IMG/VR virus record: IMGVR_UViG_3300031993_000021 | Source: a virus | Taxonomy: Duplodnaviria; Heunggongvirae; Uroviricota; Caudoviricetes | DNA: 64,000 bases | Strand: one strand, 5' to 3' | Part shown: in pieces, positions 4,625 through 61,234 of the stretch | How positions within the stretch are numbered: position 1 is the stretch's first letter | How the letters are laid out: each line of letters begins with the position of its first letter | The notes under the pieces: model-generated | What the model was told of the DNA's origin: nothing | Databases searched by the model: none | Seen by the model: the letters and a program-made list of their open reading frames with translations, nothing else | Position numbers and translations under genes: made by a program

Positions 4625-4859
4625 GTTTTTAACCTCTCAAAAAATAATCTATTAACATGTATAGTATATTATACATTAAATAATTAGGCAAGTAATTATT
4701 TATTATTTTGTGGAATTTTTAAAAAAATTTTTTGAATGCTGCAAAGTTAGATAAAACAAGGAAATGAGATATATTGATAGCTTGATCAAGATAAAACAGA
4801 GTAGATATATTTATAAAAGGTGTGTACACTATATTTAACGGGTGTTTAGAGGTAAAAGA

Positions 4860-5552
4860 ATGAACATTGATAGAATGATTACTAATACTATAGAAGGATT
4901 CAAGGACGGACGCGCAACCGGCGCGGATGATTTAAGAACATTACTCGAATCGGATTATTTGACCGACGAAATAAAAGATTCTATATATAGAAGATTCACG
5001 GCAGACATAGAAGAATTTATAAATGATTATTTGACGCGAAGCGAGGACAAGAACGCAAGAAAAGGCATGATTTATTGTAACCTTGAAACATGGCAAGCGT
5101 GTTCTGATGATATAGGGAGATACTACTTTAAGCAAAATAAATATTTAGTTGAAAGTCACCGCAGGGGGGGAGCGTATCGCGAGGAACTTCTAATACTAGC
5201 GATGGAAGTATACGAACATTTTTGCAGACTATATCGGAAGCAGTTTTTTATTTACGATTGTGCTATGTTCCTAGGGATAACGCGCGAGACGATATACGAA
5301 TTAAGTAACAAATACTCTGACATGTTGAAAAAGGCGCACACCATGCAAGAATCTAGCATGCGCACTGCTTTAGCAAGTGGGCGATCCAACGTAACAGCAA
5401 TGGCAATTTTACTGAATCATGATTATGACTACACAAGAACGACTCAAGTCGTACATACAGTCGATAGAATTAAATCTGCGGACACACTTCCAACGTTGAA
5501 TATTGACGAAGAAACAAAATCTGACAGCTACCAGAATGAAGAAAAGCTTTGA
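4860..5552 (+). CDS. putative terminase small subunit (HTH, Terminase_2-like)
   Basis: GAGGT RBS then ATG at 4860; HTH FLGITRETIYELS; RSNVTAMAILLNHDYD resembles the TerS SxxSAxxxxxRLLxN motif; first gene of the long rightward operon; not adjacent to TerL. Confidence 0.35.
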   Translation: MNIDRMITNTIEGFKDGRATGADDLRTLLESDYLTDEIKDSIYRRFTADIEEFINDYLTRSEDKNARKGMIYCNLETWQACSDDIGRYYFKQNKYLVESHRRGGAYREELLILAMEVYEHFCRLYRKQFFIYDCAMFLGITRETIYELSNKYSDMLKKAHTMQESSMRTALASGRSNVTAMAILLNHDYDYTRTTQVVHTVDRIKSADTLPTLNIDEETKSDSYQNEEKL

Positions 5553-54583: not shown

Positions 54584-54758
54584 GGGAATGACAATGCCTG
54601 AGAACTGCGCATATTGTCCGTGCCTATATACGGATTATCAAGGATGGCATTGTGGGACAAAAGAGGGAAAGGATAAAAAGATATGCCAAGATAGTCTTTA
54701 TTTCTCGCAAAGACCGAGTTGGTGTCCTTTGGTAGAGATTGATAATGGGAAAACATGA
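54570..54758 (+). CDS. small Cys-rich protein
   Basis: CAYCPC ... WHCGTKEGKDKKICQ ... WC. Confidence 0.3.
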   Translation: MIAIKGMTMPENCAYCPCLYTDYQGWHCGTKEGKDKKICQDSLYFSQRPSWCPLVEIDNGKT

Positions 54759-55236
54759 TATTAGTGAGCTTAGGCAGTTGCAGAAGTTACCGCTCGATGA
54801 AAAGGTTGAGCGGACAAAAGTAAGGATAAAACAATGGGTAGAACATTACGGTATAGATCATGTATATGTTTCGTTCTCAGGAGGGAAAGATTCAAGCGTT
54901 TTAATGGATATTGCCAGGAAGATGTATCCGGATATTAAAGCAGTTTTTCTTGATACATCACTAGAATTTCCTGAACTTAGGGATTTTGTTAAACGATATG
55001 ACAACGTGGAATACATAAAGCCAAAGATGAACTTTAGGCAAGTGATAGAAAAGTATGGTTATCCTGTAATAAGCAAAGAAGTTTCTGAATGCGTATACGG
55101 AGCAAGAAAATACTTGACAAGCTTGTTACAGGAAATGAACCTTGACAGAACAGAACAGAACAGAACAGAACAGAACAGAACAGAACAGAACAGAACAGAA
55201 CAGAACAGAACATCCTTATTCACAATTCTATCGTAA
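54739..55236 (+). CDS. PAPS reductase-like PP-loop ATPase, N-terminal fragment ending in the (TEQNR)n tract
   Basis: SFSGGKDSSV PP-loop; runs into the CAGAA repeat and terminates 26 nt after it. Confidence 0.55.
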   Translation: MIMGKHDISELRQLQKLPLDEKVERTKVRIKQWVEHYGIDHVYVSFSGGKDSSVLMDIARKMYPDIKAVFLDTSLEFPELRDFVKRYDNVEYIKPKMNFRQVIEKYGYPVISKEVSECVYGARKYLTSLLQEMNLDRTEQNRTEQNRTEQNRTEQNRTSLFTILS

Positions 55237-56119
55237 GATATGCGGAAGTGGCGAGTATGCACGAACCACTGACCAGGGGGGTACGATAACAAGTTTAGAA
55301 AAGTCAGTGGATTGGGAATCTATAGCAAAGATTATGGAAAAGAGAGGAATGGGGAGCGGTGGTTCAGTCCAGAGATTAGCAATAATGATGGGAATATTGG
55401 ACTCGAACAACCAGATAAAGGCAAGTATCCCTAGCAAGGATAGAAGTAATTACTCGCAGGTGCGATACAAATTCCTTTTGACTGCTCCATTTGATATATC
55501 AAACGTCTGTTGTACGGTGTTTAAGAAAAGTATAAGCCATTCGTATAACAGAAAGAATAAGATGCATCCGATGCTGGCAAGCATGGCATCTGAAAGCAGA
55601 TTAAGAACACAGAAGTGGCTTGATAATGGCTGTAATGGATTTGATTTAAAGGAGCCTGTCAGCAATCCGATGGCATTTTGGAATGATTCAGATGTGCTTC
55701 TGTACATAAAGAGAAATGGGCTTGAGATTGCAAATGTATATGGAGATATTGTTCCTGATTATAAAGGTATGAATCAATGCTGCGGGCAATGTTCACTTTT
55801 TGAGGAAACAAATCTGACAACGACAGGATGTTTAAGAACGGGATGTATCGCATGTGGGTTTGGATTGCACTTAGAGAAAAGTCCTAACAGATTAGAGCTA
55901 ATTGATAGAGTAAGTAAGCCTGCGATAAGGGATTTTATCTTGAGGGGAGGAGCATTTGATGAGAATGGATTATGGAAACCAGATAATAGGGGGCTAGGAT
56001 TTTGGTTTGTATATTCATGGATCAATGTTCATGGTGGTTTTAATATCTATATTCCTGAAAAGGAACGCTATGAAAGAGAGTACGGAACAGAACTAACAAA
56101 AAAACTTCTTTTGGCTTGA
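55142..56119 (+). CDS. PAPS reductase / DUF3440-like C-terminal fragment (frame +1 relative to N-terminal fragment)
   Basis: Starts inside the CAGAA tract (TTG). It continues with the Cys-rich CGQCSLFEE ... GCLRTGCIACGF domain. Together the two fragments are about 460 aa, the typical full length. Confidence 0.5.
   Translation: MTEQNRTEQNRTEQNRTEQNRTEHPYSQFYRKICGSGEYARTTDQGGTITSLEKSVDWESIAKIMEKRGMGSGGSVQRLAIMMGILDSNNQIKASIPSKDRSNYSQVRYKFLLTAPFDISNVCCTVFKKSISHSYNRKNKMHPMLASMASESRLRTQKWLDNGCNGFDLKEPVSNPMAFWNDSDVLLYIKRNGLEIANVYGDIVPDYKGMNQCCGQCSLFEETNLTTTGCLRTGCIACGFGLHLEKSPNRLELIDRVSKPAIRDFILRGGAFDENGLWKPDNRGLGFWFVYSWINVHGGFNIYIPEKERYEREYGTELTKKLLLA
55146..55210. repeat. 13 x CAGAA pentanucleotide tandem repeat inside coding sequence
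   Basis: Direct reading of cagaacagaac...; it encodes (TEQNR)4 and splits the gene into two frames. Confidence 0.9.
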
Positions 56120-56155
56120 AGGAATTATCACAGACAGACTGAAAGCCATTATAAT

Positions 56156-56283
56156 CTGCGGTGGAGGAATAGGTAGACGCAACTTGTAGGGGCAAAGAAT
56201 AGGTGGAAGTCCTATTGCTTTAGAATTTGAAGTCCACACGACCTAAAGAAAATTCATGTAAGGTGCAAATCCTTACCCGCAGA
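56156..56283 (+). other. tRNA-like structured element A (about 128 nt)
   Basis: Termini CTGCGGT ... CCCGCAG can pair like an acceptor stem. Internal box GGAGGAATAGGTAGACGC. 3' hairpin GTAAGG TGCAAAT CCTTAC. Confidence 0.25.
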
Positions 56284-56326
56284 ATCGCCAGAAATGGCGG
56301 TCATAGGCAAATCTTCTTTCTTAGTG

Positions 56327-56450
56327 CTGTGGTGGCAGGAATAGGTAAACGCGGACAACATAAGTCTGTGGTCGAAAAGCGTACTATTGACGAGTAGTAG
56401 AAGCTATTCATAAACGAACCACATTGTAGAGTGCAAATCTCTACCCACAG
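56327..56450 (+). other. tRNA-like structured element B (paralog of A)
   Basis: CTGTGGT ... CCCACAG termini; box GGCAGGAATAGGTAAACGC; hairpin GTAGAG TGCAAAT CTCTAC. Confidence 0.25.
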
Positions 56451-56486
56451 CATCACCGAGAGGTGAACCCCATTTAATCGCATGGT

Positions 56487-56556
56487 AGTGCGTTAGCTTA
56501 AGCCGGTTCAGAGCGCTTGGTAACAAGAAATACAGGTTCAAATCCTGTGCGCACTA
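56487..56556 (+). ncRNA. tRNA-like element C (70 nt), possible degenerate or atypical tRNA
   Basis: Acceptor pairing AGTGCGT / GCGCACT. Canonical T-arm ACAGG TTCAAAT CCTGT. D and anticodon arms cannot be folded canonically by eye. Confidence 0.25.
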
Positions 56557-56572
56557 TTAAGGAGGTACGAAT

Positions 56573-56719
56573 ATGGCTGATATTAAACAAGAATGTCCTT
56601 GGATGGTAGATATGTGGGGAATCCCTATATGCAGACTGAATGTACTTCCGTGTGAAAGAGTGCCACAAAATCTCTGTGACCAAAAAAAGGAAACAAATAA
56701 AAATGATTGTAAAACCTAA
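56573..56719 (+). CDS. small Cys-rich protein (48 aa)
   Basis: TAAGGAGG RBS 7 nt upstream; below the ORF-track length cutoff. Confidence 0.35.
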   Translation: MADIKQECPWMVDMWGIPICRLNVLPCERVPQNLCDQKKETNKNDCKT

Positions 56720-60379: not shown

Positions 60380-61234
60380 GTGGGGGGTATAACAAAGAAT
60401 GTACCTAGAGAGTGGACGGAACAAGAAATTGAATGGTGTTTAAAGCTTAAACAGGACGGATTTACCATATCGGATATTGCACAAAGTATCGATAGAGACG
60501 TGACAAGTGTATCAATAAAGTTAAAGAGACTTACAAAGAAAAATGATACCTATAATGCAGAACATTTATTACAAAAATATCAAATGAATGATGAGTTTTA
60601 TGAAAAGATAAAACCAAGTTGTGTATTAGATGTTTATTGTGGTGTAAAGCAATATTGGCGGAATAAATGTAAATGTGTTGATAATGATAAAAATACGAAA
60701 ATAGAATCCGATTATCATATGGACGCATTAAAATTTGTCTGTCAAGAATATTTAAGAGGAAATAAATACGATATTGTTGATCTTGATCCATATGGAAGCG
60801 CATATGACCTATTTGATTTAGCAATTAAGATGGCTAAGAAAGGGCTAGTAATAACATATGGTGAGCTTGGACATAAAAGATGGAAAAGACTTGATTATGT
60901 TAGAAATGTCTATGGAATAGATAGAATAGAAGATTTTACACTTGAAACTTTGATTTTAAAAACTCAGGAAATTGCAAGGCATAATCATAAAGAATTAATT
61001 ATATGGAAAAAGGGGACTTGGCGGAATATTGCAAGAGTTTATTTCTTCATTAAACCTTACAAGACAACTGAGCAATGGGAAGGGAATGCCATAAAAGATT
61101 TTCCAGAAGATATAAATGATTATTTTATAGAGAATACGGTTATTGATGATGGAGGTCAATATTTAGTTCCGCTTGATGCTGTAAGAGAAGGGCTAGAGCA
61201 TTATTATTATCAGGATTTAATGGAAGATAAATGA
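60380..61234 (+). CDS. hypothetical protein with N-terminal HTH
   Basis: GFTISDIAQSIDRDVTSVSIKLKRL HTH; the downstream DLDPYGS motif is noted but not diagnostic. Confidence 0.35.
   Translation: MGGITKNVPREWTEQEIEWCLKLKQDGFTISDIAQSIDRDVTSVSIKLKRLTKKNDTYNAEHLLQKYQMNDEFYEKIKPSCVLDVYCGVKQYWRNKCKCVDNDKNTKIESDYHMDALKFVCQEYLRGNKYDIVDLDPYGSAYDLFDLAIKMAKKGLVITYGELGHKRWKRLDYVRNVYGIDRIEDFTLETLILKTQEIARHNHKELIIWKKGTWRNIARVYFFIKPYKTTEQWEGNAIKDFPEDINDYFIENTVIDDGGQYLVPLDAVREGLEHYYYQDLMEDK

What the first reader, a model, noticed from the sequence alone, without database searches (positions are those of the whole stretch)
56120..56572. About 400-nt noncoding block of three tandem tRNA-like modules upstream of a small-gene cluster
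No ORF covers this region. It contains two paralogous modules of about 125 nt, at 56156..56283 and 56327..56450. Each is framed by 7-nt terminal inverted repeats, CTGCGGT...CCCGCAG and CTGTGGT...CCCACAG. Each has a conserved GG(A/C)GGAATAGGTA(G/A)ACGC box and a 3' hairpin with a GTGCAAATC loop. A third element of 70 nt, at 56487..56556, has acceptor-like pairing and a canonical T-arm (ACAGG TTCAAAT CCTGT), but I cannot fold its D and anticodon arms. Candidates are degenerate or atypical phage tRNAs, a structured ncRNA family, or an iteron-type replication origin. The block lies between the PAPS-reductase gene and the DnaD/DnaC replication genes.
Basis: seen in the sequence. Interest (0 to 1): 0.55.

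Follow-up and report, generated by a model that had tools for sequence, protein, structure and literature searches.

The report
Phage tRNA-shaped RNAs carrying swappable domains
The block holds two members of a large, unannotated family of phage RNAs built on a leucine-tRNA-like frame, in which the anticodon arm is replaced by an interchangeable folded domain, followed by a third tRNA-like gene that has no anticodon loop; what these RNAs do is not known.

Summary
Window 56155-56284 and 56326-56452 (+ strand) are paralogous RNA genes. Position 56487-56556 is a tRNA-like gene (Rfam tRNA, 44.6 bits) whose anticodon arm is a 4-bp stem capped by a GUAA tetraloop.

The two long modules are not tRNAs: ARAGORN and Rfam both miss them. 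A BLAST search also found members, unannotated in the cases I inspected, in cultured phages (Leuconostoc LN34, Bacillus Grass, Enterococcus EFDG1).

The architecture is a 7-bp terminal stem, a tRNA-Leu-type D arm, a 44-150-nt variable folded domain, a conserved U, and a 6-bp T stem with loop UGCAAAU. Covariation in the two stems is very strong: 97% of cells are paired, with 374 double changes against 98 in shuffles. My covariance model scores the window modules at 75 and 63 bits.

Members lie on the same strand as nearby tRNA genes (238 of 238). The variable domain falls into 139 unrelated types among 192 sequences. Near-identical relatives of this phage carry different cassettes at the same site.

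Best explanation: tRNA-scaffolded trans-acting RNAs matured like tRNAs. The function is inferred, not shown. An iteron-type origin is rejected.

The parts
56155..56284 (+). Module 1, a tRNA-Leu-framed RNA. Terminal stem 56155-56161 with 56277-56283. U8 G9 at 56162-56163. D arm 56164-56180, with an A11-G24 mismatch. Variable domain 56181-56254, which contains an internal T-arm-like hairpin AAUAGG-UGGAAGU-CCUAUU. C-A-U at 56255-56257. T stem 56258-56263 with 56271-56276, and loop UGCAAAU at 56264-56270. Unpaired A at 56284.
   Evidence: Covariance model R1 gives 75.0 bits, E 2e-17, over the full model length. The exact family pattern matches. Stems are 7/7 and 6/6 paired. The variable domain shares its motifs with the L055 type.
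56286..56299 (+). Small hairpin CGCCA-GAAA-UGGCG, starting 2 nt after module 1.
   Evidence: Read directly from the sequence. Kept in relatives L223 and L224 with loop GGAA. It is not a general feature of the family.
56326..56452 (+). Module 2, a tRNA-Leu-framed RNA. Terminal stem 56326-56332 with 56445-56451. D arm 56335-56352, with one extra A. Variable domain 56353-56425, which begins with the hairpin CGGAC-AACAUAA-GUCUG. T stem 56426-56431 with 56439-56444, and loop UGCAAAU at 56432-56438. A at 56452.
   Evidence: R1 gives 63.0 bits, E 3e-14. The exact family pattern matches. Stems are 7/7 and 6/6 paired. Folding z-score is -2.8. Nearly identical in L223, one difference in the variable domain.
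56453..56466 (+). Small hairpin UCACC-GAGA-GGUGA, directly after module 2.
   Evidence: Read directly from the sequence. In L223 and L224 the stem is kept and the loop is UUAU.
56487..56556 (+). Element 3, a tRNA-like gene without an anticodon loop. Acceptor stem 56487-56493 with 56549-56555. D arm 56496-56514. Four-pair stem plus GUAA tetraloop 56516-56527. T arm 56532-56548 with loop UUCAAAU. Discriminator A at 56556. The Shine-Dalgarno sequence AAGGAGG of the next gene begins 3 nt later.
   Evidence: Rfam RF00005 gives 44.6 bits against a gathering score of 29, E 3e-06. The minimum-free-energy fold is a cloverleaf. ARAGORN does not call it and R1 does not match it. It is conserved in L223 and L224 with three substitutions, none in a stem, and the loop becomes GAAA.

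Best explanation
Modules 1 and 2 are genes for stable, trans-acting RNAs of a widespread phage and prophage family. I describe them as tRNA-Leu-framed RNAs with a variable insert.

The RNA keeps the upper half and elbow of a leucine tRNA. This comprises a 7-bp acceptor-like stem stacked on a 6-bp T stem, U8, a D arm GCG-GAAUAGGUAGA-CGC with G18 G19, a near-invariant U at the position of U48, and a T loop UGCAAAU. The anticodon arm and variable arm are replaced by a folded domain of 44-150 nt. That domain differs from type to type and can be exchanged as a cassette.

Inferred mechanism. The RNAs are transcribed together with neighbouring tRNA genes or with the flanking operon. The tRNA-like frame lets the host tRNA-maturation enzymes cut them out: RNase P at the 5' end, and RNase Z or exonucleases at the 3' end. 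The frame then gives them tRNA-like stability. The variable domain is the working part and gives each RNA its own specificity for a protein, RNA or ligand that is still unknown. A tandem array such as the one in this window therefore delivers several specificities at once.

Element 3 is a separate tRNA-derived RNA whose anticodon loop has been replaced by a tetraloop. It cannot decode. It probably acts as a further frame-only RNA or as a processing signal just ahead of the next gene's ribosome-binding site.

Shown here: family membership, RNA-level structure, transcribed strand, association with tRNA genes, diversity of the cassettes, and selection on the structure of the cassettes. Not shown: expression in this phage, processing by RNase P or RNase Z, and any target.
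For: Family and structure.
- One pattern recovers at least 120 viral loci and 100 genome loci, where about 0.03 would be expected by chance by my own estimate.
- On 90 distinct members, 97.4% of stem cells are paired. There are 374 double-sided changes against 98 +/- 10 in shuffles, and slid controls give 34-44% paired.
- The D stem covaries too: GAG/CUC in phage LN34 against GCG/CGC in most members.
- G-U pairs outnumber A-C pairs 96 to 22, which places the RNA on the + strand.
- Model R1 hits the window only at the two modules, at 75 and 63 bits. Family members score 32-93 bits.

tRNA-Leu origin.
- The only genuine tRNA that R1 matches, among those of phages EFDG1, Grass and T4, is EFDG1 tRNA-Leu-TAA (24.5 bits).
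- tRNA-Leu genes are closest to the D-arm consensus, with a minimum of 1 edit.

Link to the tRNA pathway.
- 77 of 220 loci have an ARAGORN-called tRNA within 1 kb, and all 238 such tRNAs are on the same strand as the element.
- Members lie inside the tRNA clusters of EFDG1 and Grass.
- Tandem arrays with spacers of 5 to 18 nt occur in L050 (5 nt) and L011 (18 nt).

An independent gene.
- In eight Listeria sensu lato species, conservation starts and stops exactly at the terminal stem.
- An invariant TTGCAT box and a TG-TAT(T/C/A)AT box lie upstream, and a covarying hairpin followed by a T run lies downstream.

The variable domain is functional.
- 192 sequences fall into 139 unrelated types.
- Within a type, the closing helix covaries while the loops are invariant: 6 of 7 pairs show double changes in one type, and 4 of 9 plus 1 more in a second helix in another.
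- Module 1's domain shares GUAGGGG, a GG-UGGAAGU-CC hairpin and an ACACGNCCUA loop with a type found on 17 other contigs.

Cassette behaviour.
- L023 and L083 share the flank and frame but not the middle. L022 and L092 share only the element.
- L223 and L224, whose PAPS reductase is 89-96% identical to the window's, carry other cassettes. L224 carries a third module.
Against: There is no expression or processing data for any member.

The base before the stem pairs with the 'discriminator' in 64% of members. That is unlike tRNA precursors, and it could hinder RNase P, RNase Z and CCA addition.

The acceptor-plus-T stack is 13 bp, where tRNAs have 12. CCA is almost never encoded (4 of 192).

In this window, the only promoter-like site would start transcription inside the terminal stem (TATAAT ends at 56155). 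No terminator follows, so the modules here must be read through from upstream.

No conserved protein partner is encoded nearby. No antisense target above chance exists in the window.

The strict conservation of the D-loop and T-loop sequences was partly imposed by my search pattern.
Confidence: 0.5

Rival explanations
1. The conserved frame is itself the working part. The RNA is a decoy or sponge for a host factor that recognises the tRNA-Leu elbow and acceptor. Candidates are leucyl-tRNA synthetase, which by established knowledge does not read the anticodon in bacteria, or a tRNA-targeting defence enzyme. The insert would only tune stability or be tolerated.
For: The 24 frame bases required by the pattern are exactly conserved across very different phages and hosts, while the stems vary freely. 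The frame resembles tRNA-Leu. The unpaired base after the stem is A in 48% of members and in both window modules; A73 is the main LeuRS identity element according to the literature, which I cite from memory. The Listeria chromosomal copy lies next to azlC/azlD, a branched-chain amino-acid exporter.
Against: A mere stuffer should shrink and drift. Instead, the inserts keep covarying helices and invariant loops within each type, and identical inserts occur in unrelated phages. The discriminator is not conserved and is often paired. No CCA is encoded.
Confidence: 0.2
2. The modules are cis-acting processing or stabilising signals, in the manner of tRNA punctuation. Cleavage by tRNA enzymes would cut the polycistronic transcript, setting the 3' end of the upstream message and the 5' end of the downstream one.
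For: Members lie between operons, on the same strand as the flanking genes. Typical sites are between a late regulator and the terminase genes, or at the end of an operon. In the window, element 3 ends 2 nt before the Shine-Dalgarno sequence of the next gene. No promoter or terminator of its own is evident in the window.
Against: A processing signal needs neither a 44-150-nt conserved insert nor many insert types. The Listeria copy appears to be a stand-alone unit, with promoter-like boxes upstream and a covarying terminator hairpin downstream, and no downstream gene on that strand. Arrays of two to five modules would be redundant.
Confidence: 0.12
3. The modules are tRNA-Leu genes interrupted by an intron. 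After splicing they would give an ordinary tRNA.
For: The 5' part closely resembles the tRNA-Leu acceptor and D arm. Introns in tRNA-Leu are known in bacteria. Other tRNA genes in these loci carry inserts in the anticodon loop (L028 and L112).
Against: Nothing that could form the 3' half of an anticodon stem or a class-II variable arm lies ahead of the T stem. There is only a helix strand and C-A-U. Inserts of 44-150 nt are too short for group I introns. No Rfam intron or ribozyme family matches. The 139 unrelated inserts share no catalytic core.
Confidence: 0.03
4. The modules are decaying tRNA pseudogenes with no function.
For: There is no anticodon. ARAGORN and Rfam reject modules 1 and 2. 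The D stems of both window modules have a defect: an A-G mismatch in one and an extra A in the other.
Against: All 13 stem pairs are intact in both modules. Covariation across hundreds of members is massive. The Listeria copy is conserved across eight species.
Confidence: 0.03
5. The block acts at the DNA level, as an iteron-type origin, a packaging site or a recombination site.
For: It consists of direct repeats in a non-coding gap about 1.3 kb upstream of the replication genes. In many phages the family lies just upstream of the terminase genes.
Against: The repeats differ by compensatory changes and tolerate G-U pairs on one strand only. The cassettes differ between near-identical phages. 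Members occur within tRNA clusters and as a chromosomal gene. No short identical iterons are present.
Confidence: 0.02

Closest known systems
Class II bacterial tRNA-Leu
   Same: A 7-bp terminal stem abutting the T stem. U8 G9. The D arm GCGGAAU(A/U)GGUAGACGC with G18 G19. A15 and a conserved U at the U48 position. A 7-nt T loop with U54...A58 and C56. Location and orientation within tRNA gene clusters.
   Different: There is no anticodon arm and no class-II variable arm; a 44-150-nt unrelated folded domain stands in their place. The T stem has 6 bp, giving a 13-bp stack. The T loop has G where U55 would be. The discriminator varies and is often paired. ARAGORN and Rfam's tRNA model do not recognise the modules.
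Phage T4 stable RNAs species 1 and 2 (rnaC, rnaD)
   Same: They are 119-139 nt RNAs annotated as 'small, stable RNA', encoded at the end of a phage tRNA cluster on the same strand. rnaC ends in a T arm. That their function is still unknown is from my memory.
   Different: There is no sequence or model similarity; R1 finds nothing in the T4 region. They have no tRNA-Leu D arm. They are not known to come in many cassette types.
RNase P-processed phage immunity RNAs (P1/P7 C4, P4 CI)
   Same: From the literature, cited from memory: these are small phage RNAs with a tRNA-like stem, released by RNase P, whose variable loops set specificity.
   Different: Rfam's library, which should include the C4 family (from memory), gives no match. 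No complementary target above chance exists in the window. The size and the elbow structure also differ.
Bacterial Y-RNA-like YrlA and tmRNA (tRNA-mimicking ncRNAs)
   Same: They reuse the tRNA D-loop/T-loop elbow inside a larger non-coding RNA.
   Different: In YrlA the RNA ends lie at the Ro-binding stem and the acceptor-like stem is closed (from memory of PMC4201824, which was listed but which I did not read), so the topology is permuted relative to this family. tmRNA has no D stem and carries a reading frame. ARAGORN finds no tmRNA, and Rfam matches neither family.
Engineered 'tRNA scaffold' for recombinant RNA expression
   Same: From the literature, cited from memory: an RNA of interest replaces the anticodon arm of a tRNA. 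The chimera is then processed and stabilised by the cell's tRNA machinery. This is the same design as proposed here.
   Different: That design is man-made. Here the design is natural, derived from tRNA-Leu, and its processing has not been tested.

Membership tests
tRNA-Leu-framed variable-insert RNA family (defined here; model R1) | A 7-bp terminal stem directly abutting a 6-bp T stem | tested here: met
   Module 1: 7/7 and 6/6 pairs. Module 2: 7/7 (8 with the flanking T-A) and 6/6. In the family, 95% and 99% of cells are paired, with covariation.
tRNA-Leu-framed variable-insert RNA family (defined here; model R1) | D box U-G-GCGGAAUAGGUA(G/A)ACGC and T loop UGCAAAU | tested here: met
   Both modules match the exact pattern, with 0 matches in 100 shuffles. 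Deviations: C11 to A in module 1, and one inserted A in module 2.
tRNA-Leu-framed variable-insert RNA family (defined here; model R1) | Covariance-model score within the range of family members | tested here: met
   75.0 and 63.0 bits (E 2e-17 and 3e-14), against 32-93 bits for the members in 100 loci.
tRNA-Leu-framed variable-insert RNA family (defined here; model R1) | Conserved U (and usually C-A-U) immediately 5' of the T stem | tested here: met
   Module 1 has CAU and module 2 has AUU. In the family, U is present in 98% and A at position -2 in 85%.
tRNA-Leu-framed variable-insert RNA family (defined here; model R1) | Membership of element 3 (56487-56556) | tested here: not met
   R1 gives no match at E <= 1. 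Element 3 is a different tRNA-derived RNA.
Canonical tRNA (Rfam RF00005 / ARAGORN) | Detected by tRNA gene finders | tested here: not met
   Modules 1 and 2: no ARAGORN call and no RF00005 match even at E <= 10. Element 3: RF00005 at 44.6 bits, but no ARAGORN call.
Canonical tRNA (Rfam RF00005 / ARAGORN) | A 5-bp anticodon stem with a 7-nt loop carrying U33 and an anticodon | tested here: not met
   Module 1 has no such arm. Module 2 has a hairpin CGGAC-AACAUAA-GUCUG, but with A at position 33 and followed by 60 more nt. Element 3 has a 4-bp stem and a GUAA tetraloop.
Canonical tRNA (Rfam RF00005 / ARAGORN) | Aminoacylation and CCA end | not testable with these tools
   CCA is not encoded in the window modules and is encoded in only 4 of 192 family members. 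Charging needs a biochemical assay.
Intron-containing tRNA-Leu | Removing the insert leaves an anticodon arm and a class-II variable arm | tested here: not met
   Only a helix strand plus C-A-U precedes the T stem. No intron or ribozyme family matches.
T4 rnaC/rnaD stable RNAs | Sequence or structure similarity to T4 species 1 and 2 RNAs | tested here: not met
   R1 finds nothing in T4 68000-76000. Inspection of the sequences shows no shared D box or T loop.
Iteron-type replication origin | Several short, near-identical direct repeats that bind an initiator, conserved among close relatives | tested here: not met
   The repeats are 125-130-nt units, 77% identical, with compensatory differences. 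Relatives L223 and L224 carry different units.
Y-RNA-like (YrlA), tmRNA, C4 antisense RNA | Match to the curated Rfam model | tested here: not met
   No such match in the window at gathering thresholds, nor in 56050-56650 at E <= 10. ARAGORN finds no tmRNA.

The most novel reading that the evidence does not exclude
Phages of Bacillota and neighbouring lineages may carry a modular 'adaptor RNA' system. A universal tRNA-Leu-derived frame would dock onto a shared partner, either the host tRNA machinery or an as-yet unidentified protein. Over a hundred interchangeable structured domains would each recognise a different target, for example host immune sensors or RNA-binding proteins. Phages would shuffle and stack these cassettes in arrays, much as they shuffle anti-defence genes.
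Probability: 0.2. Interest if true: 0.85.

Novelty: new variant of a known kind. Interest (0 to 1): 0.68.

Why it matters
tRNA-like non-coding RNAs in phage tRNA clusters have been known since T4's species 1 and 2 RNAs, and their function, as far as I know, is still unexplained.

This block leads to a much larger and better-defined case. The family is missing from Rfam 15 and is unannotated in the three GenBank phage records I inspected (LN34, Grass, EFDG1). It is present in cultured phages of Leuconostoc, Bacillus, Enterococcus, Listeria and Lactobacillus, so genetics and biochemistry are immediately possible.

The family has an unusual two-part design: a strictly conserved tRNA-Leu frame and a highly diverse, exchangeable folded domain that is itself under selection. 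If the frame really serves as a natural 'tRNA scaffold', this would be the natural counterpart of a widely used RNA-engineering trick. It would also point to a large, unexplored set of phage RNA effectors.

In practical terms, these genes are missed by tRNA finders and left blank in annotations. A covariance model would fix that.

Tried and rejected
- BLASTN of the 500-nt block against GenBank phages found no match. The cassettes are too diverse; only a spliced frame query works.
- Searching viral contigs for relatives of the PAPS reductase found none. An exact-protein look-up returned only an identical contig. Relatives came from the large protein search plus contig look-ups. The more distant ones (L225-L229) have no RNA block after the gene.
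- An exact search for element 3's D arm in viral contigs gave 0 hits, so element 3 has no known relatives beyond L223 and L224.
- Antisense-target search: the longest complementarities of modules 1, 2 and 3 to the window are 10-14 nt, within the range of shuffled controls.
- T4 rnaC and rnaD as family members: rejected.
- Rfam at permissive thresholds, on the window block and on the shortest member (LN34), gave only chance-level hits.
- Conserved protein neighbour: clustering of flanking ORFs gives only positional neighbours (terminase, HNH, portal, ArpU-like regulator), with no candidate partner.
- Seven full-text literature searches, including searches for the motif sequences themselves, found no description of this family. 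A 2023 catalogue of 10,006 candidate viral structured RNAs (PMC10690425) may contain it, but its main text does not describe it.
- GNRA loops as a selected feature of the spacer hairpins and of element 3: not supported. The substitutions that keep GNRA fall at the free N position, and one hairpin loses the motif.
- The promoter and terminator scanner did not flag the Listeria signals that I read by eye. Those signals rest on the alignment.
- The weak Pfam TRM (tRNA methyltransferase) hit of ORF 60380-61234 is below the family cut-off. PHROGs, over a different stretch of the protein, calls it a D5-like regulator. I dropped it as a lead.
Full report
WHAT IS IN THE WINDOW

The 453-nt gap lies between the PAPS-reductase gene (which ends at 56119) and the next gene (ATG at 56573). 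It holds three co-oriented RNA-like units on the + strand.

Modules 1 and 2 are paralogs. Each has:
- a 7-bp terminal stem: TCTGCGG/CCGCAGA in module 1 and GCTGTGG/CCACAGC in module 2;
- a box GG(A/C)(A)GGAATAGGTA(G/A)ACGC;
- about 75 nt with no similarity between the two modules;
- a 6-bp hairpin with loop TGCAAAT.

The stem differences between the two modules are compensatory: C-G becomes T-A in the terminal stem, and AAGG/CCTT becomes AGAG/CTCT in the hairpin. The family pattern matches exactly twice in the 64 kb and never in 100 shuffles.

ARAGORN finds no tRNA anywhere in the window. Rfam finds one, at 56487-56556 (RF00005, 44.6 bits). Even at E <= 10, Rfam reports nothing for modules 1 and 2.

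Element 3 folds as a cloverleaf at minimum free energy. Its anticodon arm, however, is CUUG-GUAA-CAAG, which is 5 nt too short and has no anticodon.

Short hairpins follow modules 1 and 2, at 56286-56299 and 56453-56466. Gene callers placed no gene in the gap on an identical ENA contig or on two related contigs.

A LARGE FAMILY

The pattern GGAATAGGTARACGC-N70-100-GTGCAAATC has 24 specified bases. By my estimate it should match about 0.03 times by chance in IMG/VR.

From 192 distinct sequences, the architecture is as follows:
- a 7-bp terminal stem;
- U8 G9;
- a 3-bp D stem G10 C11 G12 / C G C, closing the loop GAAUAGGUAGA;
- a purine- and A/U-rich linker;
- a variable domain closed by a long-range helix;
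- Y-A-U, with U in 98% of members;
- a 6-bp T stem and the loop UGCAAAU;
- the 3' strand of the terminal stem with no spacer, so that the two helices give 13 stacked pairs.

Total length was 117-147 nt in the pattern-limited sample. Once the gap limit is lifted, lengths run from 96 nt (Leuconostoc phage LN34) to 204 nt (Enterococcus phage EFDG1).

On 90 distinct members, 97.4% of stem cells are standard pairs. Twelve of 16 pairs show double-sided changes. There are 374 such cells against 98 +/- 10 in shuffles, and sliding the partner columns drops pairing to 34-44%. The three D-stem pairs are invariant in that sample, so they say nothing there. In LN34, however, the D stem is GAG/CUC instead of GCG/CGC.

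G-U pairs outnumber A-C pairs 96 to 22, so the structure is read on the strand given here.

A covariance model built from 49 members with short inserts (R1) scores module 1 at 75.0 bits and module 2 at 63.0 bits. It hits nothing else in the window. Family members in 100 loci score 32-93 bits.

None of 22 loci that I scanned gave an Rfam hit on the element at gathering thresholds. The shortest member gave none at E <= 10. ARAGORN does not call the elements either.

DERIVED FROM tRNA-Leu AND KEPT WITH THE tRNA GENES

The D arm is the bacterial tRNA-Leu D arm with one change. For comparison, E. coli tRNA-Leu reads GUGGCGGAAUUGGUAGACGC; I cite that sequence from memory.

Among ARAGORN-called tRNAs in the loci, tRNA-Leu is closest to the consensus, with a minimum of 1 edit. 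Among all the tRNAs of EFDG1, Grass and T4, R1 weakly matches only EFDG1 tRNA-Leu-TAA (24.5 bits, E 3e-4).

The conserved positions correspond to the tertiary contacts of the tRNA core: U8-A14, A15-U48, and G18 G19 with the T loop. This correspondence is an inference from established tRNA structure.

In 77 of 220 loci there is an ARAGORN-called tRNA within 1 kb, and all 238 such tRNAs lie on the element's strand. In EFDG1 and in Bacillus phage Grass the element sits inside the annotated tRNA cluster and carries no annotation. In one locus it begins 14 nt after a ROOL RNA.

In temperate phages and prophages the usual site is between an ArpU-like late regulator and the HNH, small-terminase, large-terminase and portal genes, all on the same strand. 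In my experience this is also where such phages keep their tRNA genes; I did not test that point.

Hosts are mostly Bacillota: Listeria, Paenibacillus, Bacillus, Weissella, Leuconostoc, Levilactobacillus, Enterococcus and many Clostridia. There are also Saccharibacteria and other Patescibacteria, and a few MAGs labelled Gammaproteobacteria, Alphaproteobacteria, Bacteroidales, Fusobacterium and one archaeon.

AN INDEPENDENT GENE IN LISTERIA

In eight Listeria sensu lato species, one copy lies downstream of ORFs I read as azlC and azlD (no domain search was run), in a non-phage context.

The alignment shows near-perfect identity from the first to the last base of the terminal stem, with divergent flanks. 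There are two exceptions. Upstream lies an invariant CTTGCAT box and, about 17 nt later, a TG-n-TAT(T/C/A)AT box. Downstream lies a hairpin that covaries between species (GACTAGCG/CGCTAGTC, GATTAGCG/CGCTAATC, GGCTAGCG/CGCTAGCC, GACTAGTG/CACTAGTC), followed by a T run.

I read this as promoter, roughly 20-nt leader, RNA, terminator. The consensus scanner did not flag either signal, so this reading rests on the alignment alone.

THE VARIABLE DOMAIN IS DIVERSE, SELECTED AND EXCHANGEABLE

The 192 inserts fall into 139 clusters with no detectable similarity between clusters.

Within a cluster the insert is conserved and structured. In one five-member type, 6 of the 7 pairs of the closing helix show double-sided changes, while the stretches CGAAUAAGGGUU and GAGUAACCCCGAAAAAC and the loop CCAGCUCAUA are invariant. 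In a four-member type, 4 of 9 pairs of one helix and 1 pair of another do the same.

The 5' linker is more complementary to its own insert than to other inserts (z = -3.7 to -5.8). Many inserts contain extra T-arm-like hairpins, such as GGUUCGAAUCC or GG-UGGAAGU-CC.

Module 1's insert shares three motifs with a type found on 17 other viral contigs: GUAGGGG, a GG-UGGAAGU-CC hairpin whose stem differs, and an ACACGNCCUA loop. UAGG(G) can pair with (C)CCUA in both.

Cassette exchange is visible directly:
- L023 and L083 are 93% identical through the upstream flank and the first 28 nt of the element. They are unrelated across the insert, and 94% identical again over the 3' frame.
- L022 and L092 share only the element, at 95% identity.
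- The window's own relatives show the same thing. L223 (PAPS reductase 89% identical) keeps the flanks, the terminal stem TCTGCGG/CCGCAGA, module 2, both spacer hairpins and element 3. In place of module 1, however, it has a 162-nt member with a different D arm, insert and T stem.
- L224 (96% identical) has that member, an extra 106-nt member in front of it, and a different cassette in place of module 2.

Tandem arrays also occur elsewhere: three units with 5-nt spacers in L050, two in L011 and at least four in L061.

ELEMENT 3

Element 3 is conserved in L223 and L224 with three substitutions, none of them in a stem. The tetraloop changes from GUAA to GAAA. That substitution falls at the free position of GNRA, so it is compatible with selection for a tetraloop but does not prove it.

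I found no other relatives, and R1 does not match it. It ends 2 nt before the AAGGAGG of the next gene.

HOW IT MOST LIKELY WORKS

Shown here:
- these are RNA genes with a tRNA-like upper half and elbow;
- they are kept with tRNA genes and read in the same direction;
- both the frame and the insert are under selection;
- the insert is modular.

Inferred: the frame makes the transcript a substrate for RNase P and for 3' maturation, and makes it as stable as a tRNA. The insert is the effector and gives each RNA its own target. This is the same logic as the engineered tRNA scaffold for recombinant RNAs.

I give the full mechanism a probability of 0.5. I give family membership and RNA-level structure more than 0.9.

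Several points count against it. There is no expression data. The stack has 13 bp rather than 12. The base before the stem pairs with the 'discriminator' in 64% of members. In this window there is no promoter or terminator of the block's own, and the one promoter-like site would start transcription inside the stem. No partner has been found.

The rivals are:
- a frame-centred decoy for a factor that binds tRNA-Leu (0.2);
- a cis-acting processing signal (0.12);
- an intron-bearing tRNA-Leu (0.03);
- dead pseudogenes (0.03);
- a DNA-level element such as an origin (0.02).

COMPARISON WITH KNOWN SYSTEMS AND NOVELTY

The nearest relative by descent is tRNA-Leu. The modules fail the defining tests for a tRNA: they have no anticodon arm and gene finders do not detect them.

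The nearest analogues by kind are T4 rnaC and rnaD, which are stable RNAs at the end of the tRNA cluster. They are not members of this family.

C4/CI-type RNase-P-processed immunity RNAs, YrlA and tmRNA all differ in topology, and Rfam matches none of them here.

Seven literature searches found no description of the family. It may be among the 10,006 unnamed candidates of PMC10690425.

I therefore rate it a new variant of a known kind (tRNA-like ncRNA). It is widespread, it is present in cultured phages, and it can be tested directly.

Noticed in passing
window 54739-55236 and 55142-56119: The PAPS-reductase gene is split into two overlapping ORFs in different frames. The N-terminal piece carries the Pfam PAPS_reduct domain. 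The closest relatives (95-97% identical) encode one fused 444-aa protein, while more distant relatives again have two ORFs, one of them with a 253-nt gap between the halves (L225). This could be a frameshift, a sequencing error or a genuine two-gene form.
   Followed up: partly
L028 10227-10371 and L112 1687-1831: Two 145-nt tRNA genes that ARAGORN missed. At least L112 looks like tRNA-Lys(UUU) with an insert of about 70 nt in the anticodon loop. The inserts share GGAAAGCAAGGGCC and GGGCAGUAC, so they may be a small conserved intron or an inserted RNA domain.
   Followed up: no
L012 1133-1236, L043 3334-3450, L045 8693-8778, L076 597-724: Further over-long tRNA-like genes (86-128 nt) with ordinary GGUUCGAAUCC T loops and ordinary D arms, also uncalled by ARAGORN. 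Some carry an internal second T arm. Insert-bearing tRNA-like genes may therefore not be limited to the tRNA-Leu frame.
   Followed up: no
L024 667-1248 and 1262-1385: A full-length ROOL RNA (Rfam, 260.7 bits) is followed 14 nt later by a family member on the same strand. Large ornate RNAs and these tRNA-framed RNAs thus share phage 'RNA gene' neighbourhoods.
   Followed up: no
L132 4544-4674 (and L140, L153, L162, L170, L174, L188, L196): A chromosomal, apparently non-prophage copy of the family is conserved almost base for base in eight Listeria sensu lato species. It lies downstream of ORFs I read as azlC/azlD (a branched-chain amino-acid exporter), with promoter-like boxes of its own and a covarying terminator hairpin.
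   Followed up: partly
window 56150-56155: A perfect TATAAT lies 17 nt after ATCACA, and its last T is the first base of module 1's terminal stem. If this promoter were used, transcription would start inside the stem. The same sequence is present in L223 and L224.
   Followed up: no
window 56195-56216: Module 1 contains an internal near-copy of its own D box (AAGAATAGGTGGAAGT against AGGAATAGGTAGACGC) and of its T arm (AGGTGGAAGTCCT against AGGTGCAAATCCT). This suggests partial internal duplication, or a second T-loop module within the insert.
   Followed up: partly
window 60380-61234: This 284-aa ORF has a sub-threshold Pfam hit to tRNA N2,N2-dimethylguanosine methyltransferase (TRM, E 6.6e-5, residues 112-156). 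PHROGs, over a different stretch of the protein, calls it a D5-like transcriptional regulator. The hit is probably not related to the RNAs.
   Followed up: partly
L223 5794-6540 and 1314-1886; L227-L228 about 4848-5180: Relatives of this phage carry HNH or NUMOD4 homing-endonuclease-like genes inserted at various points of the same early region. None of the window ORFs I scanned in this region matched an HNH or NUMOD4 family, consistent with a recombination-prone, mosaic region.
   Followed up: no
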